DNA from: Paenarthrobacter sp. NPDC092416
GTDB taxonomy: Bacteria > Actinomycetota > Actinomycetes > Actinomycetales > Micrococcaceae
NCBI RefSeq assembly: GCF_044755025.1
Contig: NZ_JBIVQG010000012.1
Span: 60,790-84,789, forward strand
Length of the DNA stretch: 24,000 nt
Direction: 5' to 3'
Part shown: one piece after another, positions 18,717 to 24,000 of the stretch
How the letters are laid out: each line of letters opens with the position of its first letter
How positions within the stretch are numbered: position 1 is the stretch's first letter
Translations under genes and position numbers: made by a program
The notes under the pieces: model-generated
What the model saw: the letters and a program-made list of their open reading frames with translations, nothing else
Told to the model about the DNA's origin: nothing
Databases searched by the model: none

Positions 18717-19394
18717 ATGAACGGAAAACGTCCTTACCGTCGCGCCGGCGCGGTCATCGTAGCCGGGTCCATCGTGTGGCTCACGGGGATCTCCCCGGTG
18801 TCGCGCGTGTACATCACCGCCGATCCTGCCGAGCGGCTCCGCATGCTCGTGGACGGCGAGCGCGGCTGGATCGTCGGCCATCATCTCGCCGCGGCCGGTA
18901 CCGCCGCTGTTCCCATGGGCTTCGCCGCTTTCGCACGAGCCCAGCATCCCGGAATATCCAAGACCTGGGCCGGAGCCGCGGCCGCAGCTTTGCTCGGCGG
19001 CGCCCCGCTCTTCGTCTACAGCCTGTCGCGCCGGGCGTCGGACCTTGAACGCTTCGCCTACTTCCGAGGCTCGTCCTTTCCGTTCATGGCTTATTCGGCA
19101 CTCCACGTTGCGGCCTTGGCTGCCCTCGGAGGGAGTCTGCTGACCTCTCCCGCCAAGCGGTGGGTCGGCATCACGGCTGCTGGTGCGGCGACCCTCTATG
19201 GCACCATCCTGATGGTCAAGAAGGACATTCCGCCGTTCGCGTTCTATCTCGTCGAAGCGACTGTGGGCGCCTACTTGATGGGGTGGGAGCCTCCGGCCGA
19301 CGTTGTACGGGACGCCGACGTTGTACGGGACGCCGACGTTGTACGGGACGCCGACGTTGTACGGGACGAGGAAGGAACGCTCGGGGAGCAGTAG
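18717..19394 (+). CDS. Hypothetical integral membrane protein with C-terminal DVVRDA hexapeptide repeats
   Basis: Several hydrophobic segments are present (AVIVAGSIVWLTGI, AAAALLGGAPLFVY, ALHVAALAALGG, ITAAGAATLYGTILMV, FAFYLVEATVGAYLMG). GC3-rich coding pattern. I recognise no family. Confidence 0.6.
   Translation: MNGKRPYRRAGAVIVAGSIVWLTGISPVSRVYITADPAERLRMLVDGERGWIVGHHLAAAGTAAVPMGFAAFARAQHPGISKTWAGAAAAALLGGAPLFVYSLSRRASDLERFAYFRGSSFPFMAYSALHVAALAALGGSLLTSPAKRWVGITAAGAATLYGTILMVKKDIPPFAFYLVEATVGAYLMGWEPPADVVRDADVVRDADVVRDADVVRDEEGTLGEQ
19299..19370 (+). repeat. In-frame 18-bp tandem repeat, 4 copies (GACGTTGTACGGGACGCC)
   Basis: Copies lie at 19299, 19317, 19335 and 19353. The first three are identical and the fourth diverges only in its last 2 nt. 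Together they encode (DVVRDA)x3 + DVVRDE. Confidence 0.95.
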
Positions 19395-19449
19395 GCCTGG
19401 CTCTCGTCCGCCGCGTTGCGATCCGCTGTGCCCTGGCTGGCTCGGGCCT

Positions 19450-20658
19450 TTACGGCCTGCGGACCCTGGTCAGCATCGGCGCGGGGTCTTTGTGTGCGTC
19501 CGCGGAGGCGCCGCGCATGGTCACTTTTGCTGCGTGCCCAACAACGGCCGCCAAGGCTTCACGGCTCGGTGGCCGCCCGGGTTGGCCCCCGCCGCCCCGT
19601 TGCCGACTGGCAAAACGTGACGCGGCCTCACGTTGCTCGTGTGCTCCGTTGCCGCGCTCGAGGATGTCCGAGACACCCGCTTTCACCAGATCGAGTTCAC
19701 CCTGGTCGTCCAGCACCGGGCTGAGGTAATCCACCAAGGCCCAGACGACGTCGGCCGCGGGTTGAGGGCGGAAGTCGCCGAAGTCCAAGAGGTCACCGCG
19801 CAACCCTGAATTGCTCGCCTGCCAACTCGCCATCCTTAGCAGCGCCGTCGGCACTGTGGAGGGTTCCACGCCGTCGAGCATTTCCAAGGAAGCCGTCTCC
19901 ACCAAGGCGCGCACCAGCACCGCAATGAGCGCGGCGTCCTCGGCACGGAGGCAGACATCGGCAACCCGGACCTCCACCGTGGGGTGATTGCGTGAGATCC
20001 GGGCGTCGAAGTAGATCATGCCTTCATCCAGGAGCACGCCCGTCTCCAGGAGCCGCCTGACAATGCGGCGGTAGGCAGTTAACGAGCCAAACACGGCCGA
20101 AGGACCAGAGGTGGGCCAGCGGTTCCAAGCTTGCGTGCGGTAGCTGTCGAAACCCGTGGGGAGACCGCGCCAGAACGGGGAATTGGCGCTGATGGCCGTG
20201 AGCACCGCGAGTTTGTCCCGCATATGGTCGAGGACCACCACGCCTTCCTCCGGCGACTCCACTGAGGTGTGCACGTGGAACCCGCACGTCAGTTGCTCGT
20301 GGGCGGTCAGCCCGAAGCGTTCCAGCATCTCCGCATAGCGCGGGTCAGGGGTGGTGTGGCTCGTGGAGGCCATCGGGGAGGTCGCGATGGCGGCTACGCT
20401 GGCACCTTGCTTCCGGGCCGCCTCGTTGGCCATGGCCCGGCCGCGTCGGATCTGGTGGAGCAACTCCGCGTAGCTGTGGCAAGGGCGGGTCTGGGTTTCG
20501 ATTTGCTCCAGCTTGAGCTCATGGCTGAGGCCCGTTTCCAACGCTGGGTCCCTTGACGGCTCTTCATTCCGGGCGAGGAGGGCATCCGCCATAGCCAAGG
20601 GCTCGCCCGTCACAGGATCGACGATGAGTAGCTCTTCCTCAACCCCGAAGGTCCGCAT
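19450..20658 (-). CDS. Carboxylate-amine ligase, glutamate-cysteine ligase family 2 (YbdK/GCS2)
   Basis: The N-terminus [15 protein letters not shown] is the GCS2 signature. [19 protein letters not shown] and ERGNGA..QR are further family blocks. The start is set to ATG 20658. The ORF-track extension to 20862 runs through non-coding repeats. Confidence 0.85.
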
Positions 20659-20773
20659 GGTTCCATTCTGCGTCACAGATGCAGGGGTGGACAGGGCTTG
20701 GCCCGAGGTGCGGGCCCGGAGCCCGAACGTGCTGCCTGGGGCCGCACCACGTGCCGCCATCCGCACCAGTCCC

Positions 20774-20849
20774 AACCGGCGCGGATGGCGCGAAAGGGTG
20801 CGCCGACCGAACGAACCGGCGCGGATGGCGCGAAAGGGTGCGCCGACCG
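20774..20849. repeat. 36-bp direct repeat, 2 copies with 40-bp period
   Basis: AACCGGCGCGGATGGCGCGAAAGGGTGCGCCGACCG occurs at 20774-20809 and again at 20814-20849. A 10-bp piece (CGCCATCCGC, 20755-20764) is the inverted copy of GCGGATGGCG inside each unit. Confidence 0.9.
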
Positions 20850-20880
20850 CGCCAACCAACACGTGCGCCGAACGAAAGGG

Positions 20881-22404
20881 TCAGTCCTGGAAGTACTCCA
20901 CCTTGGCCCCGATGGTGTTGAGTCGCTCGGCGAGGTCCTCGTAGCCGCGTTCGATCACGTAGATGTTGCGCAGCTCGGAGGTTCCGCGGGCGGCAAGCAT
21001 CGCCAGGAGCAAGCACGCCGCCGGGCGGAGGGCGGGCGGGCAGCCTATTTCCGCGGCACGCCACTTGGTGGGTCCGTTGACGTAGATCCGGTGCGGATCC
21101 AGCAACTGCACCTGGGCGCCAAGTTTGTTCAGTTCCGTCAGGTAGATGGCGCGGTTCTCGTAGACCCAGTCGTGGATCATGGTCTGGCCCTCGGCGTTGC
21201 CCGCGATCACGGCAAAGAAGGGCAGGTTATCGATGTTCAGGCCCGGGAACGGCATGGGGTGAATCTTGTCCTGCGGCGCACGGAGCTCGGACGGCTTGGT
21301 GGTGACGTCCACCAGCCGGGTTCGGCCGTTCCGTGCCATGTATTCGCCGGACACTTCGAGCTTTTGGCCCATCTGCTCAAGAGTTGCGAGCTCGATTTCC
21401 ATGAACTCGATCGGCACGCGCCGAATGGTGACCTCGGAATTCGTCACGATGCCCGCGGTGATGAGGCTCATGGCCTCGATGGGGTCCTCGGACGGGAAGT
21501 ATTCGATGTCGACGTCGATCGCGGGCCGGCCAGTGATCTTCAGCGTCGTGGTTCCGACTCCCTTGATCTCCACGCCAAGTCCGTGCAGGTAGAAGCAGAG
21601 GTCCTGGACCATGTAGTTGGGGCTCGCGTTCCGGATCACCGTGGTGCCCTGGCGGTGCGCGGCAGCCATGATCGCATTTTCGGTGACGGTGTCTCCGCGT
21701 TCGGTCAAAACGAACGAGCGGTCATGGCCGTCAGCCGGAGGAGCCGCCACGGCGTAGAAACCGGACTTGGCCTCAACAGTGAGCCCAAACTGGCGCAATG
21801 CCTGCATGTGCGGCTCAACGGTTCGAGTGCCAAGGTCGCATCCGCCGGCATACGGCAGATGGTATTCGGCGGTCTCATCCAGGAGGGGGCCCAGCAGCAT
21901 GATGACGCTGCGCGTACGGCGGGCAGCATCCACGTCCATGGATGCGAGATCCAGGACCTCAGGCCGACGGATGCGAAGGTCGCTGCCATTGAGCCACGTG
22001 CATTCGACGCCAATGGAGGTCAGGACCTCCACAATCCGGTTGACTTCTTCTATGCGTGCCAACCGGCGCAGCGTGGTGGTGCCACGGTTGATCAGGCTCG
22101 CACACAACAGGGCAACGCCGGCGTTCTTGCTGCTGTTGACGTCCACTTCGCCGGAGAGCGTTCGTCCGCCCTCCACGCGGAGATGGGTCATCTGGGGCCG
22201 GCCGACCTTGACGATGGAGCGCCCAAAAATCGCTTCAAGGCGTTCGATCATCCGGAGGCTGAGGTTCTGTTTACCTTGCTCCATCCGGGCTATAGCGCTT
22301 TGGCTGGTTCCCAGCTCGGTAGCCAACTGCCCCTGGGTCCAGCCCTTTTCGCCACGGGCATCGCGAAGGAGGAGGCCTACATGTTCGGCGGTAGGTTGCG
22401 TCAT
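20881..22404 (-). CDS. XRE-family HTH domain fused to a MurA-like enolpyruvyl transferase (UDP-GlcNAc 1-carboxyvinyltransferase fold)
   Basis: Residues ~10-65 (LLLRDARGEKGWTQGQLATELGTSQSAIARMEQGKQNLSLRMIERL) form a Cro/C1-type HTH. The rest aligns by eye with E. coli MurA: SSKNAG (K22), RRTRS (R91), AGGCDLGTRTVE (C115/R120 loop; Cys codon at 21838-21840), SEDPIE (D305), ALRPAA (R397) and ERGYEDL. ATG 22404 is preferred over the ORF-track TTG 22410. Confidence 0.85.
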   Translation of the reverse strand: MTQPTAEHVGLLLRDARGEKGWTQGQLATELGTSQSAIARMEQGKQNLSLRMIERLEAIFGRSIVKVGRPQMTHLRVEGGRTLSGEVDVNSSKNAGVALLCASLINRGTTTLRRLARIEEVNRIVEVLTSIGVECTWLNGSDLRIRRPEVLDLASMDVDAARRTRSVIMLLGPLLDETAEYHLPYAGGCDLGTRTVEPHMQALRQFGLTVEAKSGFYAVAAPPADGHDRSFVLTERGDTVTENAIMAAAHRQGTTVIRNASPNYMVQDLCFYLHGLGVEIKGVGTTTLKITGRPAIDVDIEYFPSEDPIEAMSLITAGIVTNSEVTIRRVPIEFMEIELATLEQMGQKLEVSGEYMARNGRTRLVDVTTKPSELRAPQDKIHPMPFPGLNIDNLPFFAVIAGNAEGQTMIHDWVYENRAIYLTELNKLGAQVQLLDPHRIYVNGPTKWRAAEIGCPPALRPAACLLLAMLAARGTSELRNIYVIERGYEDLAERLNTIGAKVEYFQD

Positions 22405-22505
22405 ATCCAAGAAATATCACAAGTGATCTATATTCGATGCACAAAACGCCGATACAGCGGCAAAGGTCACATGGTACCCACCTCGTGCGATAGAGGCCGT
22501 TCGCG

Positions 22506-23216
22506 CTAAGAGGCCCGCCAGTACCCCAGCGCGTCGATTCGCAACTTGTCCACGCCCAGTACTTTACGCAGGTGCTTGACGATTGCCCGCGTGCTGGACG
22601 CCTCGCAAGCAACCCAAAAGAAGTCCTCCGCCGTGGAGACCACCTCCGGGTTCAAAGCCTCGCAGACTTCCTCCACATAGGCGGCACCGTCGCGTTTACG
22701 CGGAATCCAACTGACGACGTCGGACCCGTCAGTCCGCACCTCCAATGAGGGGTCGGTGTCGTGCTGGTATTCAAGCCAGGCCGTCACCGGCGTCTGGCGA
22801 CCACTCGCCGCGTCCATGATGCGCAGCTCATCGAGGAGCGAGTTGATGGCAGGCAGTGATGCAGGATCACCCACGACCCAGACGCGGCGCGGGGCTGGAT
22901 CCGGGAACGCAAAGGAGCTTCCCTGGACAGTGGCCTCAATGGTGTCGCCGGGCTGGGCAGTGCGGGCCCAGTTGGCTGCGACGCCGTCGTGCATGGCGAA
23001 ATCAATGCTGAAAGTTCCAGCGGCTGCGTCCGGATCAACCAGGGTGTAACCGCGCTGGTGGCCCTTGCCGGCGTCGTCAAACCAGAGCCGGATCCACATG
23101 GTGGGGTGGAGTCCTGACGCTTGAAGCAGCCCGCCGTCGCGCACGTGGATGCGAAGGAAGTCCGGGGTTAGCTCTTCGCGCCCGGTGAGCTCCAGGCGGA
23201 AGTCCTTGGCGCCCAT
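22506..23216 (-). CDS. Siderophore-interacting protein (SIP/ViuB-type FAD-binding ferric-siderophore reductase family)
   Basis: LTPDFLRIHV...RGYTLV (RxYT FAD motif)...GDTIEATV..G.F...VWVVGDPASLPAINSLL...CEASSTRAIVKHLR is the typical SIP architecture. The start is set to ATG 23216. The upstream part of the ORF (to GTG 23303) looks non-coding; the start is uncertain. Confidence 0.8.
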   Translation of the reverse strand: MGAKDFRLELTGREELTPDFLRIHVRDGGLLQASGLHPTMWIRLWFDDAGKGHQRGYTLVDPDAAAGTFSIDFAMHDGVAANWARTAQPGDTIEATVQGSSFAFPDPAPRRVWVVGDPASLPAINSLLDELRIMDAASGRQTPVTAWLEYQHDTDPSLEVRTDGSDVVSWIPRKRDGAAYVEEVCEALNPEVVSTAEDFFWVACEASSTRAIVKHLRKVLGVDKLRIDALGYWRAS

Positions 23217-23314
23217 GACTTTGAGGACTACGCCTTCCCACCTGCGCCTCAAGCAACACTCCTTCACGAATAGCCTCAATTTTGAGAACCGGACCAAAGC
23301 CACCTATCTTGAAC

Positions 23315-23333
23315 TTAAGTAAGCCTAACCTAA
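23315..23333. promoter_or_regulatory. DtxR/IdeR-type iron box
   Basis: TTAAGTAAGCCTAACCTAA against the consensus TTAGGTTAGSCTAACCTAA gives 17/19 identities, or 18/19 against the degenerate TWAGGTWAGSCTWACCTWA. It lies in the divergent region between the SIP gene and the acylase gene, 22 nt upstream of the acylase ATG. Confidence 0.75.
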
Positions 23334-23354
23334 TCTCGAAAGCGGCCAGAGATC

Positions 23355-24000
23355 ATGACGCCTGCCCCTGCGCAAGATTCCGCCCCGGCAGGCGGTACCG
23401 GCACCTACCGCGATCAATGGGGAATCCCGCATTTGTGGGCGGAAACTCCTGATGACCTCGCTTACGTCCAAGGCCTGAACGTGGCCACGGACCGCTCATG
23501 GCAGATTGAGCTGGAACGCTGGAGATCGGAAGGCCGCACCGCTGAAATGCTGGGTGCCGACGTCATCACCTGGGACCGCTTTGCCCGGCAGGCCCGGCTG
23601 GACGACACCGCGCGCCGCTGCTTCGAAGGGCTCGACGCCGAAACCCGGCGCTGGTGCCAGCGGTACGTTGACGGCATCAACCACGCGCTGGCCGACGGAT
23701 TGCGGGGCGGGCCGGAATTCGATGAGTCCGGCACGTCGCCCGAACCGTGGAACCCCTGGACTCCCATGGGCGTCTTTTTGGTGCACCACATCCTTTTCTC
23801 CACCTTCCCCAACAAGCTTTTCCGGGCCCACGTGGCGCGGACGCTCGGGCCCGAAGCCGTGGAGCTGTTCAACATCGAGGCTCCCGTCTGGTCCGGCAGC
23901 AACGCATGGGCGGCCCACGGCTCCACAACGAAGAGTGGCCTGCCCTTGATCGCCGGCGACCCACACCGCCTCATGGAACTCCCCGGTGTCTACCAGCAGG
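23355..24000 (+). CDS. Penicillin/AHL-acylase family (Ntn hydrolase, S45) protein, 3'-truncated by the window edge
   Basis: This gene is not in the ORF track because no stop is reached. My manual translation from ATG 23355 gives [52 protein letters not shown]...[28 protein letters not shown]. It contains the family blocks RD.WG.PH, A.DR.WQ and the self-processing nucleophile context GSNAW followed by GDPH. No N-terminal signal peptide is visible. Confidence 0.8.

What the first reader, a model, noticed from the sequence alone, without database searches (positions are those of the whole stretch)
20881..22431. Transcription-factor HTH fused to an apparently catalytically intact MurA-like enolpyruvyl transferase
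One 507-aa ORF joins an N-terminal Cro/C1 (XRE) helix-turn-helix (nt ~22215-22380) to a full-length MurA-fold domain. That domain keeps the residues needed for catalysis in E. coli MurA (K22, R91, C115, R120, D305, R397 equivalents by eye). The C115-equivalent cysteine (codon 21838-21840) is notable. Housekeeping MurA of at least some actinobacteria (M. tuberculosis) carries Asp there, so this looks like a paralogue rather than the cell-wall enzyme. Possibilities include a metabolite-sensing enzyme-repressor, or an enzyme recruited to DNA. Just upstream of its start is an AT-rich patch with the inverted repeat ATCAC-AA-GTGAT (22416-22427), overlapping a TGTGATATT extended -10-like sequence on the coding strand. 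That is a plausible autoregulatory operator and could give a near-leaderless transcript. The co-directional downstream gene is an orphan GCS2 carboxylate-amine ligase, which hints at a two-enzyme module.
Basis: partly seen in the sequence, partly recalled or inferred. Interest (0 to 1): 0.62.

Follow-up and report, generated by a model that had tools for sequence, protein, structure and literature searches.

The report
Self-regulating MurA enzyme with DNA-binding head
This gene joins a DNA-binding domain to a second copy of MurA, the first enzyme of cell-wall synthesis; a palindrome conserved across two phyla sits on its own promoter, so the enzyme probably switches off its own gene, which no paper I could search describes.

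Summary
ORF 20881-22404 (-) encodes 507 aa: an XRE helix-turn-helix (residues 9-65), a short disordered linker, and a full MurA domain that keeps K22, N23, R91, C115, R120, D305, R331, R371 and R397.

It is not an assembly artefact. The same architecture occurs in 9 of 38 Micrococcaceae genera sampled, all Streptomyces sampled (there it is almost certainly "MurA2", SCO5998), Nonomuraea, all 81 Propionibacteriales sampled, and many Patescibacteria. In Nocardioidaceae and Propionibacteriaceae (42/42 genomes) it is the only MurA homologue, so the domain must be a working cell-wall enzyme.

The inverted repeat at 22416-22427 is the core of an 18-bp site. It is conserved in 48/50 actinobacterial and 3/3 Patescibacteria loci, overlaps a TANNNT -10 box, and lies 6-7 nt before the start codon. 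It is the only strong copy in the genome. Best reading: a leaderless, self-repressing enzyme-repressor.

The GCS2 neighbour is not conserved, so no two-enzyme module.

Earlier agents of this scan reached the same reading on other genomes. DNA binding and catalysis remain untested.

The parts
20881..22404 (-). HTH-MurA coding sequence, 507 aa (ATG 22404; stop TGA 20881-20883)
   Evidence: ORF list and sequence. The start is conserved as M-T/A/S-Q 32-33 codons before the SQSA motif in all 19 Micrococcaceae loci. GC3 is 0.80, like its neighbours.
22210..22380 (-). XRE/Cro-C1 helix-turn-helix domain (residues 9-65); recognition helix TSQSAIARMEQGKQN
   Evidence: PF01381 E 4e-13 and PF13560 E 7e-12. 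Four helices are modelled at residues 4-60. T33, S34, Q35, S36, A37, R40, E42, G44, Q46 and N47 are invariant across 16 sequences from 4 families.
22186..22221 (-). Short linker (about residues 62-73) between the HTH and the MurA domain
   Evidence: No secondary structure at residues 61-73, and pLDDT below 50 at residues 66-70 in the AlphaFold2 model. E. coli MurA residue 1 aligns with residue 72.
20890..22191 (-). MurA-type enolpyruvyl transferase domain (residues 72-505)
   Evidence: NF006873 323.7 bits, above its cut-off. Best solved relative is C. jejuni MurA 5UJS, E 3e-58. The model superposes on MurA structures with TM about 0.9. The catalytic residues are kept.
21838..21840 (-). Codon of Cys189, equivalent to E. 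coli Cys115 (the fosfomycin target)
   Evidence: Alignments A1 and A2.
22413..22430 (-). Candidate operator TAGATCAC-TT-GTGATATT (core palindrome 22416-22427)
   Evidence: Sequence. The site type TATCTCA-N4-TGAGATA matches at 10 or more of 14 positions and ends 8-12 nt before the start in 48/50 actinobacterial loci. The same design is in 3/3 Patescibacteria loci. A weight-matrix scan of the genome gives 30.2 bits here and 17.6 for the next best site.
22411..22416 (-). -10-like hexamer TATTTC, 6 nt before the ATG (alternative reading: TGnGATATT extended -10, 22413-22421)
   Evidence: Read from the sequence. In relatives a TANNNT hexamer follows the right arm and ends 6-7 nt before the start codon. 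There is no Shine-Dalgarno sequence and no room for one.
22485..22492 (-). Distal half-site-like element TATCGCAC, 81 nt upstream of the ATG; role unknown
   Evidence: A half-site AT[CA][TG]CA[CT] lies 72-101 nt upstream in 18/19 Micrococcaceae loci, but not in Propionibacteriales.
22474..22479 (-). GGGTAC, which resembles the -10 box of SigB-type promoters; speculative second promoter
   Evidence: GGGTA[CTG] is conserved in genus g1 loci. The S. coelicolor SCO5998 promoter mapped as SigB-dependent has GGGTAT as its -10 box (PMC8346170). Not tested.
22447..22462 (-). Weak terminator-like hairpin plus T-run between the distal and proximal elements; possibly the terminator of the upstream SIP gene
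   Evidence: Consensus scan found 2 such sites in the region, against 1.5 expected by chance. Weak evidence.

Best explanation
The gene encodes a bifunctional enzyme-repressor of the MurA2 type.

[quoted passage not shown] In this genome it is a second copy beside a canonical murA.

The N-terminal XRE helix-turn-helix, tethered by a flexible linker of roughly 6-12 residues, binds (presumably as a dimer) the 18-bp palindromic site at 22413-22430. That site overlaps the -10 hexamer of the gene's own leaderless promoter. Bound protein would therefore block RNA polymerase and cap its own synthesis: negative autoregulation of a single-gene unit.

Shown here: the architecture, the kept catalytic residues, the distribution, the sole-MurA status in two families, the conservation and genomic uniqueness of the site, and its overlap with the -10 region.

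Inferred: catalysis in this particular protein, DNA binding, repression, and leaderless transcription.

Speculative: that DNA binding depends on the open or closed, ligand-bound state of the MurA domain (UDP-GlcNAc/PEP, UDP-MurNAc or a Cys adduct), which would couple expression to precursor flux.
For: Real fusion:
- All 120 best database relatives listed (79-97% identical) carry both the HTH and EPSP_synthase Pfam domains; 8000 candidates scored below E 1e-10.
- It is full length in 39/151 Micrococcaceae genomes (9/38 genera) with no internal stops.
- It is in 10/10 Streptomyces sampled, in Nonomuraea, in 81/81 Propionibacteriales by score and frame length (HTH confirmed in 22 of the 23 loci I read), and in 119 Patescibacteria proteins.

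Working enzyme:
- All nine catalytic or PEP-binding residues are kept.
- NF006873 scores above its cut-off.
- The model matches MurA structures at TM about 0.9.
- It is the only MurA homologue in 21/21 Nocardioidaceae and 21/21 Propionibacteriaceae genomes sampled (family names).

Operator:
- An 18-bp site ends 8-12 nt before the start in 48/50 actinobacterial loci from 7 families. The same palindrome-plus-leaderless design is in 3/3 Patescibacteria loci.
- The recognition helix TSQSAxxRxExGxQN is equally conserved.
- The site is unique in this genome: 30.2 bits against 17.6 for the next best. It is also the only match with up to 2 mismatches in the whole genomes G477 and G560.

Orthology to Streptomyces MurA2:
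- The actinobacterial fusions form a 100/100 clade.
- Two of three Streptomyces genomes checked have only two MurA homologues; the third has an extra copy at 239 bits.
- The fusion lies beside a divergent aconitase gene, as SCO5998 does beside SCO5999 (PMC12161575).
Against: The domain scores below the curated murA equivalog cut-off (313.5 against 392.7 bits).

It differs from canonical MurA in segments that I recall contact UDP-GlcNAc or act in product release: S162-V163-G164 becomes G-D-T, D369 becomes A, and there is a 14-residue insertion before the D305 loop. These changes are, however, shared by the sole-MurA lineages.

The conserved site overlaps the -10 box, so part of its conservation could be promoter rather than operator. 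In Micrococcaceae the left arm is degenerate, and the window matches only 10 of the 14 consensus positions.

MurA is usually monomeric, so dimerisation on a palindrome is assumed, not shown.

The genome-wide count of the bare 12-bp palindrome is at chance level.
Confidence: 0.7

Rival explanations
1. The protein is mainly a transcription factor. The MurA fold serves as a ligand-sensing domain with little or no catalytic role in this genome, where the canonical MurA on contig C16 does the housekeeping work.
For: A canonical murA is present. Only 9/38 genera of the family carry the fusion, so it is dispensable for the family. A small branch of fusions from unnamed metagenome contigs, whose relatives are Patescibacteria, has lost K22, R91, C115 or R120 yet keeps the HTH recognition helix and the palindrome. 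One of these lies divergent from murA-murB inside a peptidoglycan gene cluster. That shows the architecture can work as a pure regulator. The subfamily also differs at V163 and D369.
Against: Every catalytic residue is invariant in all actinobacterial members across about 35% sequence divergence, which a pure sensor would not need. The same protein type is the only MurA in 42/42 genomes of two families. No other strong operator site exists in the genome, so there is no visible regulon beyond the gene itself.
Confidence: 0.15
2. It is an enolpyruvyl transferase acting on a substrate other than UDP-GlcNAc (NikO-like or wall-polymer-specific), possibly working with the neighbouring GCS2 ligase as a two-enzyme module.
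For: It scores below the murA equivalog cut-off. The S162-G164 segment is altered and there is a 14-residue insertion. The GCS2 gene is co-directional and close downstream.
Against: Solved MurA structures match at E 3e-58, against 7e-22 for NikO. It is the sole MurA in two families. GCS2 adjacency is confined to two genera, and no neighbour is conserved across genera except a convergent rhodanese and Cys/Met PLP-enzyme pair, which looks like plain synteny. No biosynthetic cluster surrounds it.
Confidence: 0.05
3. The conserved upstream element is only the promoter, or the site of another regulator. The fused HTH would then bind elsewhere or serve a non-DNA role such as protein-protein contact.
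For: The right arm coincides with the -10 region, which is conserved for promoter reasons in any case. Streptomyces murA2 is known to be controlled by BldM-WhiI and SigB and has a predicted DmdR1 site (PMC4125116, PMC8346170, PMC12161575). The left arm is degenerate in Micrococcaceae.
Against: The left arm lies upstream of the -10 box and has no promoter role. It is still a mirror image of the right arm, perfectly so in many lineages, for example TATCTCACATGTGAGATA. The palindrome travels with the fusion across two phyla whose promoters differ greatly in GC content. The palindrome and the HTH recognition helix are conserved together. The residue after SQSA[VI] (N, H or A) tends to track the right-arm variant (GAGATA, GAGTTA or GATATA); this is suggestive only.
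Confidence: 0.1
4. The fusion is an artefact: a frameshift or misassembly joining a small regulator gene to murA.
For: None found.
Against: The single open frame is the same in hundreds of independent genomes, many of them complete, and in thousands of database clusters. The linker is conserved in length.
Confidence: 0.01

Closest known systems
Streptomyces MurA2 (S. coelicolor SCO5998; S. venezuelae sven5810 / vnz_28735)
   Same: Probably the same orthologous group. It is 64-65% identical over the full length, HTH included, and sits in one 100/100 clade. The Streptomyces fusion is a MurA homologue additional to the canonical one, and it lies beside a divergent aconitase gene as SCO5998 does beside SCO5999. 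The same palindrome-on-promoter design is present.
   Different: The papers I could read treat murA2 only as a second UDP-GlcNAc transferase gene and as a target of BldM-WhiI and SigB, with a predicted DmdR1 site. None mentions the HTH or self-regulation. I did not see the SCO5998 sequence itself, so the identification rests on gene count and synteny. The window's organism does not sporulate, so the developmental control cannot carry over.
Canonical MurA (E. coli MurA, PDB 1UAE; EC 2.5.1.7)
   Same: Same two-domain fold and the same catalytic residues, including the fosfomycin-target Cys.
   Different: 27% identity. It belongs to a separate clade (97/97 against 100/100). It has an N-terminal HTH, the changes V163D and D369A, and a 14-residue insertion. 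It scores below the TIGR01072 cut-off.
Bifunctional enzyme-repressors ('trigger enzymes'): BirA/bioO, NadR, PutA of enterobacteria (named from my own knowledge)
   Same: One polypeptide carries both a metabolic enzyme and an N-terminal DNA-binding domain that (here presumably) represses its own or its pathway's promoter.
   Different: The enzyme and the HTH class are unrelated to those. Ligand control of DNA binding, the defining property of BirA, is untested here. The apparent regulon is only the gene itself.
XRE HTH + shikimate kinase fusion (NCBIfam NF006015, 'anaerobic benzoate catabolism transcriptional regulator')
   Same: An XRE-type HTH fused to an enzyme-family domain. The HTH of the window protein hits this model weakly (E 1e-4).
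   Different: A different enzyme fold and pathway. The match covers the HTH only.
NikO (enolpyruvyl-UMP transferase of nikkomycin synthesis, PDB 4FQD)
   Same: The same fold; an enolpyruvyl transferase from an actinomycete.
   Different: A much weaker match than to MurA (E 7e-22 against 3e-58). NikO has no HTH, and the window has no antibiotic gene cluster.

Membership tests
MurA (UDP-N-acetylglucosamine 1-carboxyvinyltransferase) | Two-domain EPSP-synthase / inside-out alpha-beta barrel fold over the full length | tested here: met
   PF00275 covers profile positions 1-417 of 417. The AlphaFold2 model has pLDDT 86.7 and superposes on MurA structures with TM about 0.9.
MurA (UDP-N-acetylglucosamine 1-carboxyvinyltransferase) | Catalytic and PEP-binding residues K22, N23, R91, C115 (or D), R120, D305, R331, R371, R397 | tested here: met
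   All are invariant in the alignment with E. coli MurA and across the actinobacterial fusions.
MurA (UDP-N-acetylglucosamine 1-carboxyvinyltransferase) | Score above the curated family cut-offs | tested here: inconclusive
   Subfamily NF006873: 323.7 bits against 297, met. Equivalog TIGR01072: 313.5 bits against 392.7, not met.
MurA (UDP-N-acetylglucosamine 1-carboxyvinyltransferase) | Canonical residues S162-V163-G164 and D369 (their roles recalled from memory, not checked) | tested here: not met
   The fusion subfamily has G-D-T at 162-164 and Ala at 369, including the lineages where it is the only MurA.
MurA (UDP-N-acetylglucosamine 1-carboxyvinyltransferase) | Enolpyruvyl transfer to UDP-GlcNAc | not testable with these tools
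   Indirect support only: it is the sole MurA homologue in 42/42 Nocardioidaceae and Propionibacteriaceae genomes sampled.
XRE / Cro-C1 helix-turn-helix transcription factors | HTH_3-type domain | tested here: met
   PF01381 49.6 bits (cut-off 23) and PF13560 45.9 bits (cut-off 27).
XRE / Cro-C1 helix-turn-helix transcription factors | A palindromic DNA target near a regulated promoter | tested here: met
   A candidate site at 22413-22430 is conserved with the gene in 48/50 actinobacterial and 3/3 Patescibacteria loci. Actual binding is not testable here.
Enzyme-repressor fusions (BirA / NadR / PutA type) | Enzyme and DNA-binding domain in one polypeptide | tested here: met
Enzyme-repressor fusions (BirA / NadR / PutA type) | DNA binding switched by the enzyme's substrate or product | not testable with these tools
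   No data; inference only.
Streptomyces MurA2 orthologous group | Full-length similarity and common ancestry with the Streptomyces HTH-MurA | tested here: met
   64-65% identity over residues 4-507 or 8-507. The clade has 100/100 support.
Streptomyces MurA2 orthologous group | The Streptomyces HTH-MurA is the gene published as murA2 / SCO5998 | tested here: inconclusive
   Two of three Streptomyces genomes have only two MurA homologues, and a divergent aconitase gene is the neighbour, as for SCO5999 (PMC12161575). The SCO5998 sequence itself was not examined.
NikO-like secondary-metabolite enolpyruvyl transferases | Closest similarity to NikO and a place in a biosynthetic cluster | tested here: not met
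   NikO E 7e-22 against MurA 3e-58. The neighbours are unrelated and not conserved.

The most novel reading that the evidence does not exclude
The HTH-MurA fusion is an ancient flux sensor shared by Actinomycetota and Patescibacteria. The open-to-closed movement of the MurA domain on binding UDP-GlcNAc/PEP (or UDP-MurNAc, or a Cys115 adduct such as fosfomycin) changes how the two HTH heads sit on the palindrome. The first enzyme of cell-wall synthesis would then set its own level according to precursor supply. In some Patescibacteria the enzyme half has decayed into a pure sensor that controls a divergent murA-murB operon.
Probability: 0.35. Interest if true: 0.8.

Novelty: new variant of a known kind. 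Interest (0 to 1): 0.64.

Why it matters
[quoted passage not shown] Its known controls act after translation (proteolysis through ClpCP and ReoM in Firmicutes, feedback by UDP-MurNAc; both from my own knowledge).

A MurA that carries its own repressor domain and sits on its own promoter would be a new and very direct way of controlling entry into cell-wall synthesis. It is not a curiosity of one genome. It is the only MurA in two large actinobacterial families, the second MurA of Streptomyces, and the common form among the Patescibacteria proteins examined.

It gives a simple, testable system: one protein, one 18-bp site, a handful of candidate ligands. It also bears on how murA2 data in Streptomyces development and stress studies should be read.

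Tried and rejected
- Rfam scan of 19000-24000: no RNA family matched, so the upstream conservation is not a known riboswitch or leader.
- Sigma-70 consensus scan: no -35/-10 pair passed. This fits an extended -10 or TANNNT-only actinobacterial promoter, but is no evidence for one.
- Wider regulon: the weight-matrix scan of the genome gave no second site. The best other hit (17.6 bits, contig C15) lies at the start of an ArsR-type regulator gene, next to a divergent gene, and is probably that protein's own site.
- Bare-palindrome statistics: 3 sites genome-wide against about 2.2 expected. Rejected as evidence on their own.
- GCS2 module: rejected on lack of conserved adjacency.
- Conserved convergent rhodanese and Cys/Met PLP-enzyme pair: treated as plain synteny, because the genes converge on the fusion gene and variable genes are inserted between them.
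- Literature: eight searches found no description of the fusion's HTH or its operator. Several hits were name collisions such as 'muralytic' or 'Murakami'.
- Covariation between the recognition helix and the operator: suggestive but not clean, so not used as evidence.
- Artefact hypothesis: rejected.
Full report
WHAT IS THERE. On the - strand, 20881..22404 is one open frame of 507 aa. An in-frame TTG two codons upstream is possible. The ATG is the start shared by all relatives: M-T/A/S-Q, 32-33 codons before the SQSA motif. Pfam finds an XRE-type HTH_3 domain at residues 13-65 (E 4e-13) and a full-length EPSP_synthase-fold domain at 77-495. NCBIfam places the latter in the MurA subfamily NF006873 (323.7 bits, cut-off 297). 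It scores below the strict murA equivalog TIGR01072 (313.5 against 392.7 bits). The best solved relatives are all MurA enzymes (C. jejuni 5UJS, E 3e-58). NikO is far behind at 7e-22. An AlphaFold2 model built on 16 relatives has mean pLDDT 86.7. It shows four helices at residues 4-60, no secondary structure at 61-73 (pLDDT below 50 at 66-70), then a two-lobed body that superposes on MurA structures with TM about 0.9.

CATALYTIC RESIDUES. I aligned the protein with E. coli MurA. My recalled sequence proved identical to PDB 1UAE. K22, N23, R91, C115, R120, D305, R331, R371 and R397 are all kept. The subfamily does differ from canonical MurA at S162-V163-G164 (here G-D-T) and at D369 (here A). 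It also has a 14-residue insertion before the D305 loop. From memory these segments touch UDP-GlcNAc or act in product release; I could not check that here.

THE GENOME HAS A CANONICAL murA TOO. A search of the window's own assembly (5.28 Mb, 44 contigs) finds three members of the fold: a canonical murA on contig C16 (419 bits, above the cut-off, 441 aa), the fusion, and aroA. The canonical enzyme also carries Cys at position 115 (LGGCKIGDRP). That argument does not apply to this organism.

NOT AN ARTEFACT; HOW WIDE IT IS. All 120 best database relatives listed are 79-97% identical, about 507 aa long, and carry both Pfam domains. They are named from Paenarthrobacter, Arthrobacter, Pseudarthrobacter, Sinomonas and Psychromicrobium. 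In 151 genomes of the window's family, 39 genomes in 9 of 38 genera hold a full-length copy at 79% identity or more. Every other match in that search is a canonical-type MurA at about 30% identity; there is nothing in between. In an even sample of 401 genomes of the phylum, the full-length fusion appears in five families besides its own. One of them is Streptomyces, 10 of 10 sampled (named). Others are Nocardioidaceae (Nocardioides, Aeromicrobium) and Propionibacteriaceae (Aestuariimicrobium). Nonomuraea has it as well. A representative-library search also turned up distant fusions at 31-44% identity. A search seeded with one of them listed 119 fusion proteins, with source names from Patescibacteria groups (Paceibacterota, Liptonbacteria, Taylorbacteria, Colwellbacteria, Doudnabacteria, Parcubacteria). 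A tree puts all HTH-type proteins and a few HTH-less relatives in one clade (97/97). That clade is separate from canonical MurAs (100/100). The actinobacterial fusions form a tight 100/100 group.

IT MUST BE A WORKING MurA. In the order Propionibacteriales, 81 of 81 sampled genomes carry a 280-330-bit MurA-like gene, in an open frame of about 511 aa or more in all but one fragmented assembly. In Nocardioidaceae (21/21) and Propionibacteriaceae (21/21) it is the only hit to the murA model at E 1e-30 or better. Looser searches with the canonical protein and with the family model in four such genomes found nothing else except aroA. I read the start region of 20 more of these genes, and 19 show the HTH. 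These are ordinary peptidoglycan-walled Gram-positive bacteria (established knowledge). Their only MurA homologue must therefore do the job. It carries the same V163D, D369A and insertion features as the window protein. This is the strongest argument that the window's domain is catalytically competent. In this genome, though, it is an accessory second copy.

LINK TO STREPTOMYCES murA2. Two of three Streptomyces genomes checked have exactly two MurA homologues, the canonical one (435 bits) and the fusion (300 bits); the third has an extra copy at 239 bits. In one complete genome the fusion lies about 850 bp from a divergent aconitase gene. Published work names SCO5998 as 'MurA2', one of two UDP-GlcNAc transferases of S. 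coelicolor, next to aconitase SCO5999 (PMC12161575). So the fusion is very probably murA2. That gene is a direct BldM-WhiI target in S. venezuelae (PMC4125116). It has a SigB-dependent promoter in S. coelicolor (PMC8346170). Its overexpression gave no exploration phenotype (PMC11005364). None of these papers mentions the HTH in the passages I read, and I did not see the SCO5998 sequence itself.

THE UPSTREAM SITE. On its own it is not remarkable genome-wide: 3 sites, about 2.2 expected. The comparison with relatives changes that. I anchored 50 actinobacterial loci from seven families on the start codon. In 48 of them an 18-bp site matching TATCTCA-N4-TGAGATA at 10-14 of 14 positions ends 8-12 nt before the start. 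Many are perfect palindromes, for example TATCTCACATGTGAGATA. The two exceptions have the site 39 nt upstream, followed by a Shine-Dalgarno-like AGGA. The window's version is TAGATCAC-TT-GTGATATT (22413-22430). In each locus I read, the right arm runs into a TANNNT-type hexamer that ends 6-7 nt before the start codon (here TATTTC at 22411-22416, then TTGGAT, then ATG). This is the usual layout of actinobacterial leaderless promoters (established knowledge), and there is no room for a ribosome-binding site. Three Patescibacteria loci show the same design in AT-rich DNA: TATATCA-N4-TGATATA. In one it overlaps a perfect TGATATAAT extended -10 box 6 nt before the ATG. The recognition helix TSQSAxxRxExGxQN is conserved in step with it. 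A weight matrix built from the Micrococcaceae sites scores the window's own site at 30.2 bits and the next best place in the genome at 17.6 bits. That second place lies at the start of an ArsR-type regulator gene, next to a divergent gene. In two genomes where the fusion is the only MurA, the own-promoter site is the only match with up to 2 mismatches in the whole genome. The economical reading is a dimer of HTH heads on a site that covers the -10 box of the gene's own promoter: negative autoregulation with no wider regulon. DNA binding, repression and the transcription start are inferred.

A PURE-REGULATOR OFFSHOOT. Of the 119 Patescibacteria fusions, 113 keep the full catalytic set. Six, including P0134, have lost several of K22, R91, C115, R120, R371 and R397. 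P0134 keeps the HTH and the palindrome. It lies divergent, 60 bp away, from an HTH-less MurA-family gene followed by murB. Downstream of it come ddl and a Mur ligase gene. So the architecture can survive as a regulator after catalysis is lost. This supports a real DNA-binding role for the head. It also hints that the MurA fold acts as the sensing part. It is the main support for the rival that the window protein is chiefly a regulator. I rate that rival low, because here every catalytic residue is kept.

NEIGHBOURS. The gene looks like a single-gene unit. GCS2 lies directly downstream in only 5 of the 19 Micrococcaceae loci examined (two genera), plus one locus with an insertion between. It is absent from every locus read in the other two genera. 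In the window a 222-bp spacer holding two 40-bp tandem units separates the two genes. The GCS2 family match starts at residue 68 of the longest ORF. The upstream siderophore-interacting (SIP) gene is shared only within the genus. The only widely shared neighbours are a convergent rhodanese and Cys/Met PLP-enzyme pair, with variable genes inserted between them and the fusion gene. That looks like plain synteny. The two-enzyme-module idea is not supported.

UNEXPLAINED. In 18 of 19 Micrococcaceae loci a further half-site-like element lies 72-101 nt upstream (window: TATCGCAC, 22485-22492). In the window's genus GGGTA[CTG] follows it (22474-22479), resembling the -10 box of SigB-type promoters such as the one mapped for SCO5998. 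In one relative an inverted partner lies 14 nt away. A weak hairpin plus T-run lies between this and the proximal site. This could be an auxiliary operator, a stress promoter, or both; I could not tell.

COMPARISON AND NOVELTY. It works like the classical enzyme-repressors BirA, NadR and PutA (my own knowledge), but the enzyme and the HTH class are unrelated to theirs. Whether a ligand switches DNA binding is unknown. By fold and residues it belongs to the MurA family, in a separate subfamily. It is most likely an orthologue of Streptomyces MurA2. Databases annotate it as 'UDP-N-acetylglucosamine 1-carboxyvinyltransferase' or 'helix-turn-helix domain-containing protein'. Eight full-text searches found no paper that describes the fused HTH or the self-operator; many subscription-journal papers are not in that library.

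Earlier agents of this scan reached the same reading on other actinobacterial and Patescibacteria genomes. My consensus site, the Streptomyces link and the Patescibacteria loci were worked out here independently. As far as those notes show, three points are additions: the sole-MurA status in two families, the degenerate offshoot beside murA-murB, and the failure of the Cys and GCS2 arguments. I class it as a new variant of a known kind.

Noticed in passing
window 20774-20853 (spacer 20659-20880): Two tandem 40-bp GC-rich units (93% identical) with several internal inverted repeats lie between the HTH-MurA stop and the GCS2 gene.
   Followed up: partly
window 19450-20862 (-): The longest GCS2 ORF starts at GTG 20862, but the family models match only from residue 68 ([11 protein letters not shown]). 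The real start is probably ATG 20658, which leaves the 222-bp spacer.
   Followed up: partly
window 18717-19394 (+): A 225-aa ORF with no Pfam match ends in four tandem copies of DADVVR (an 18-nt tandem repeat in the DNA). In a relative of the same genus it is kept while GCS2 is absent.
   Followed up: no
L047 10293-10310 (Streptomyces genome G203); also L033, L035, L036, L037, L039: A second perfect palindrome, TATCTCGA-CA-TCGAGATA, has the same outer arms as the HTH-MurA operator. It lies 390-770 bp upstream of the primary site, about 80 bp before the divergent aconitase gene in L047. It is present in 5 of 8 Streptomyces loci read. MurA2 may also act on the aconitase side, or on a small gene in between.
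   Followed up: partly
L071 1624-4503 (metagenome contig; nearest named relatives are Patescibacteria): An HTH fused to a MurA-like domain that has lost K22, R91, C115 and R120 lies 60 bp from a divergent murA-like gene followed by murB. Downstream of it come ddl and a Mur ligase gene. The spacer holds ATATCATATATGATAT. The divergent MurA-like gene itself appears to have G at R331 and Q at R371.
   Followed up: partly
L044 (genome G379, a different family in the same order as the window's): The only MurA homologue of this complete genome is an HTH-MurA split by a frameshift at ...HPLPF|PGLNIDN.... This is probably a sequencing error, otherwise puzzling.
   Followed up: partly
protein P0169 (1204 aa, unnamed): A long protein whose C-terminal 460 aa is a MurA-like domain with nearly all catalytic residues replaced. 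In the tree it nests, on a long branch, within the actinobacterial HTH-MurA clade. Its N-terminal 740 aa were not examined.
   Followed up: no
genomes of genera g3, g5, g11, g12, g20, g36, g37 of the window's family: These genera lack the fusion but have a second HTH-less MurA homologue, mostly about 420-440 aa. It is slightly closer to the fusion (E 1e-40 to 1e-45, about 30% identity) than their canonical MurA is.
   Followed up: no
window 22474-22492: A distal element, TATCGCAC followed by GGGTAC, is conserved upstream of the gene in Micrococcaceae only. It could be an auxiliary operator or a SigB-type promoter.
   Followed up: partly
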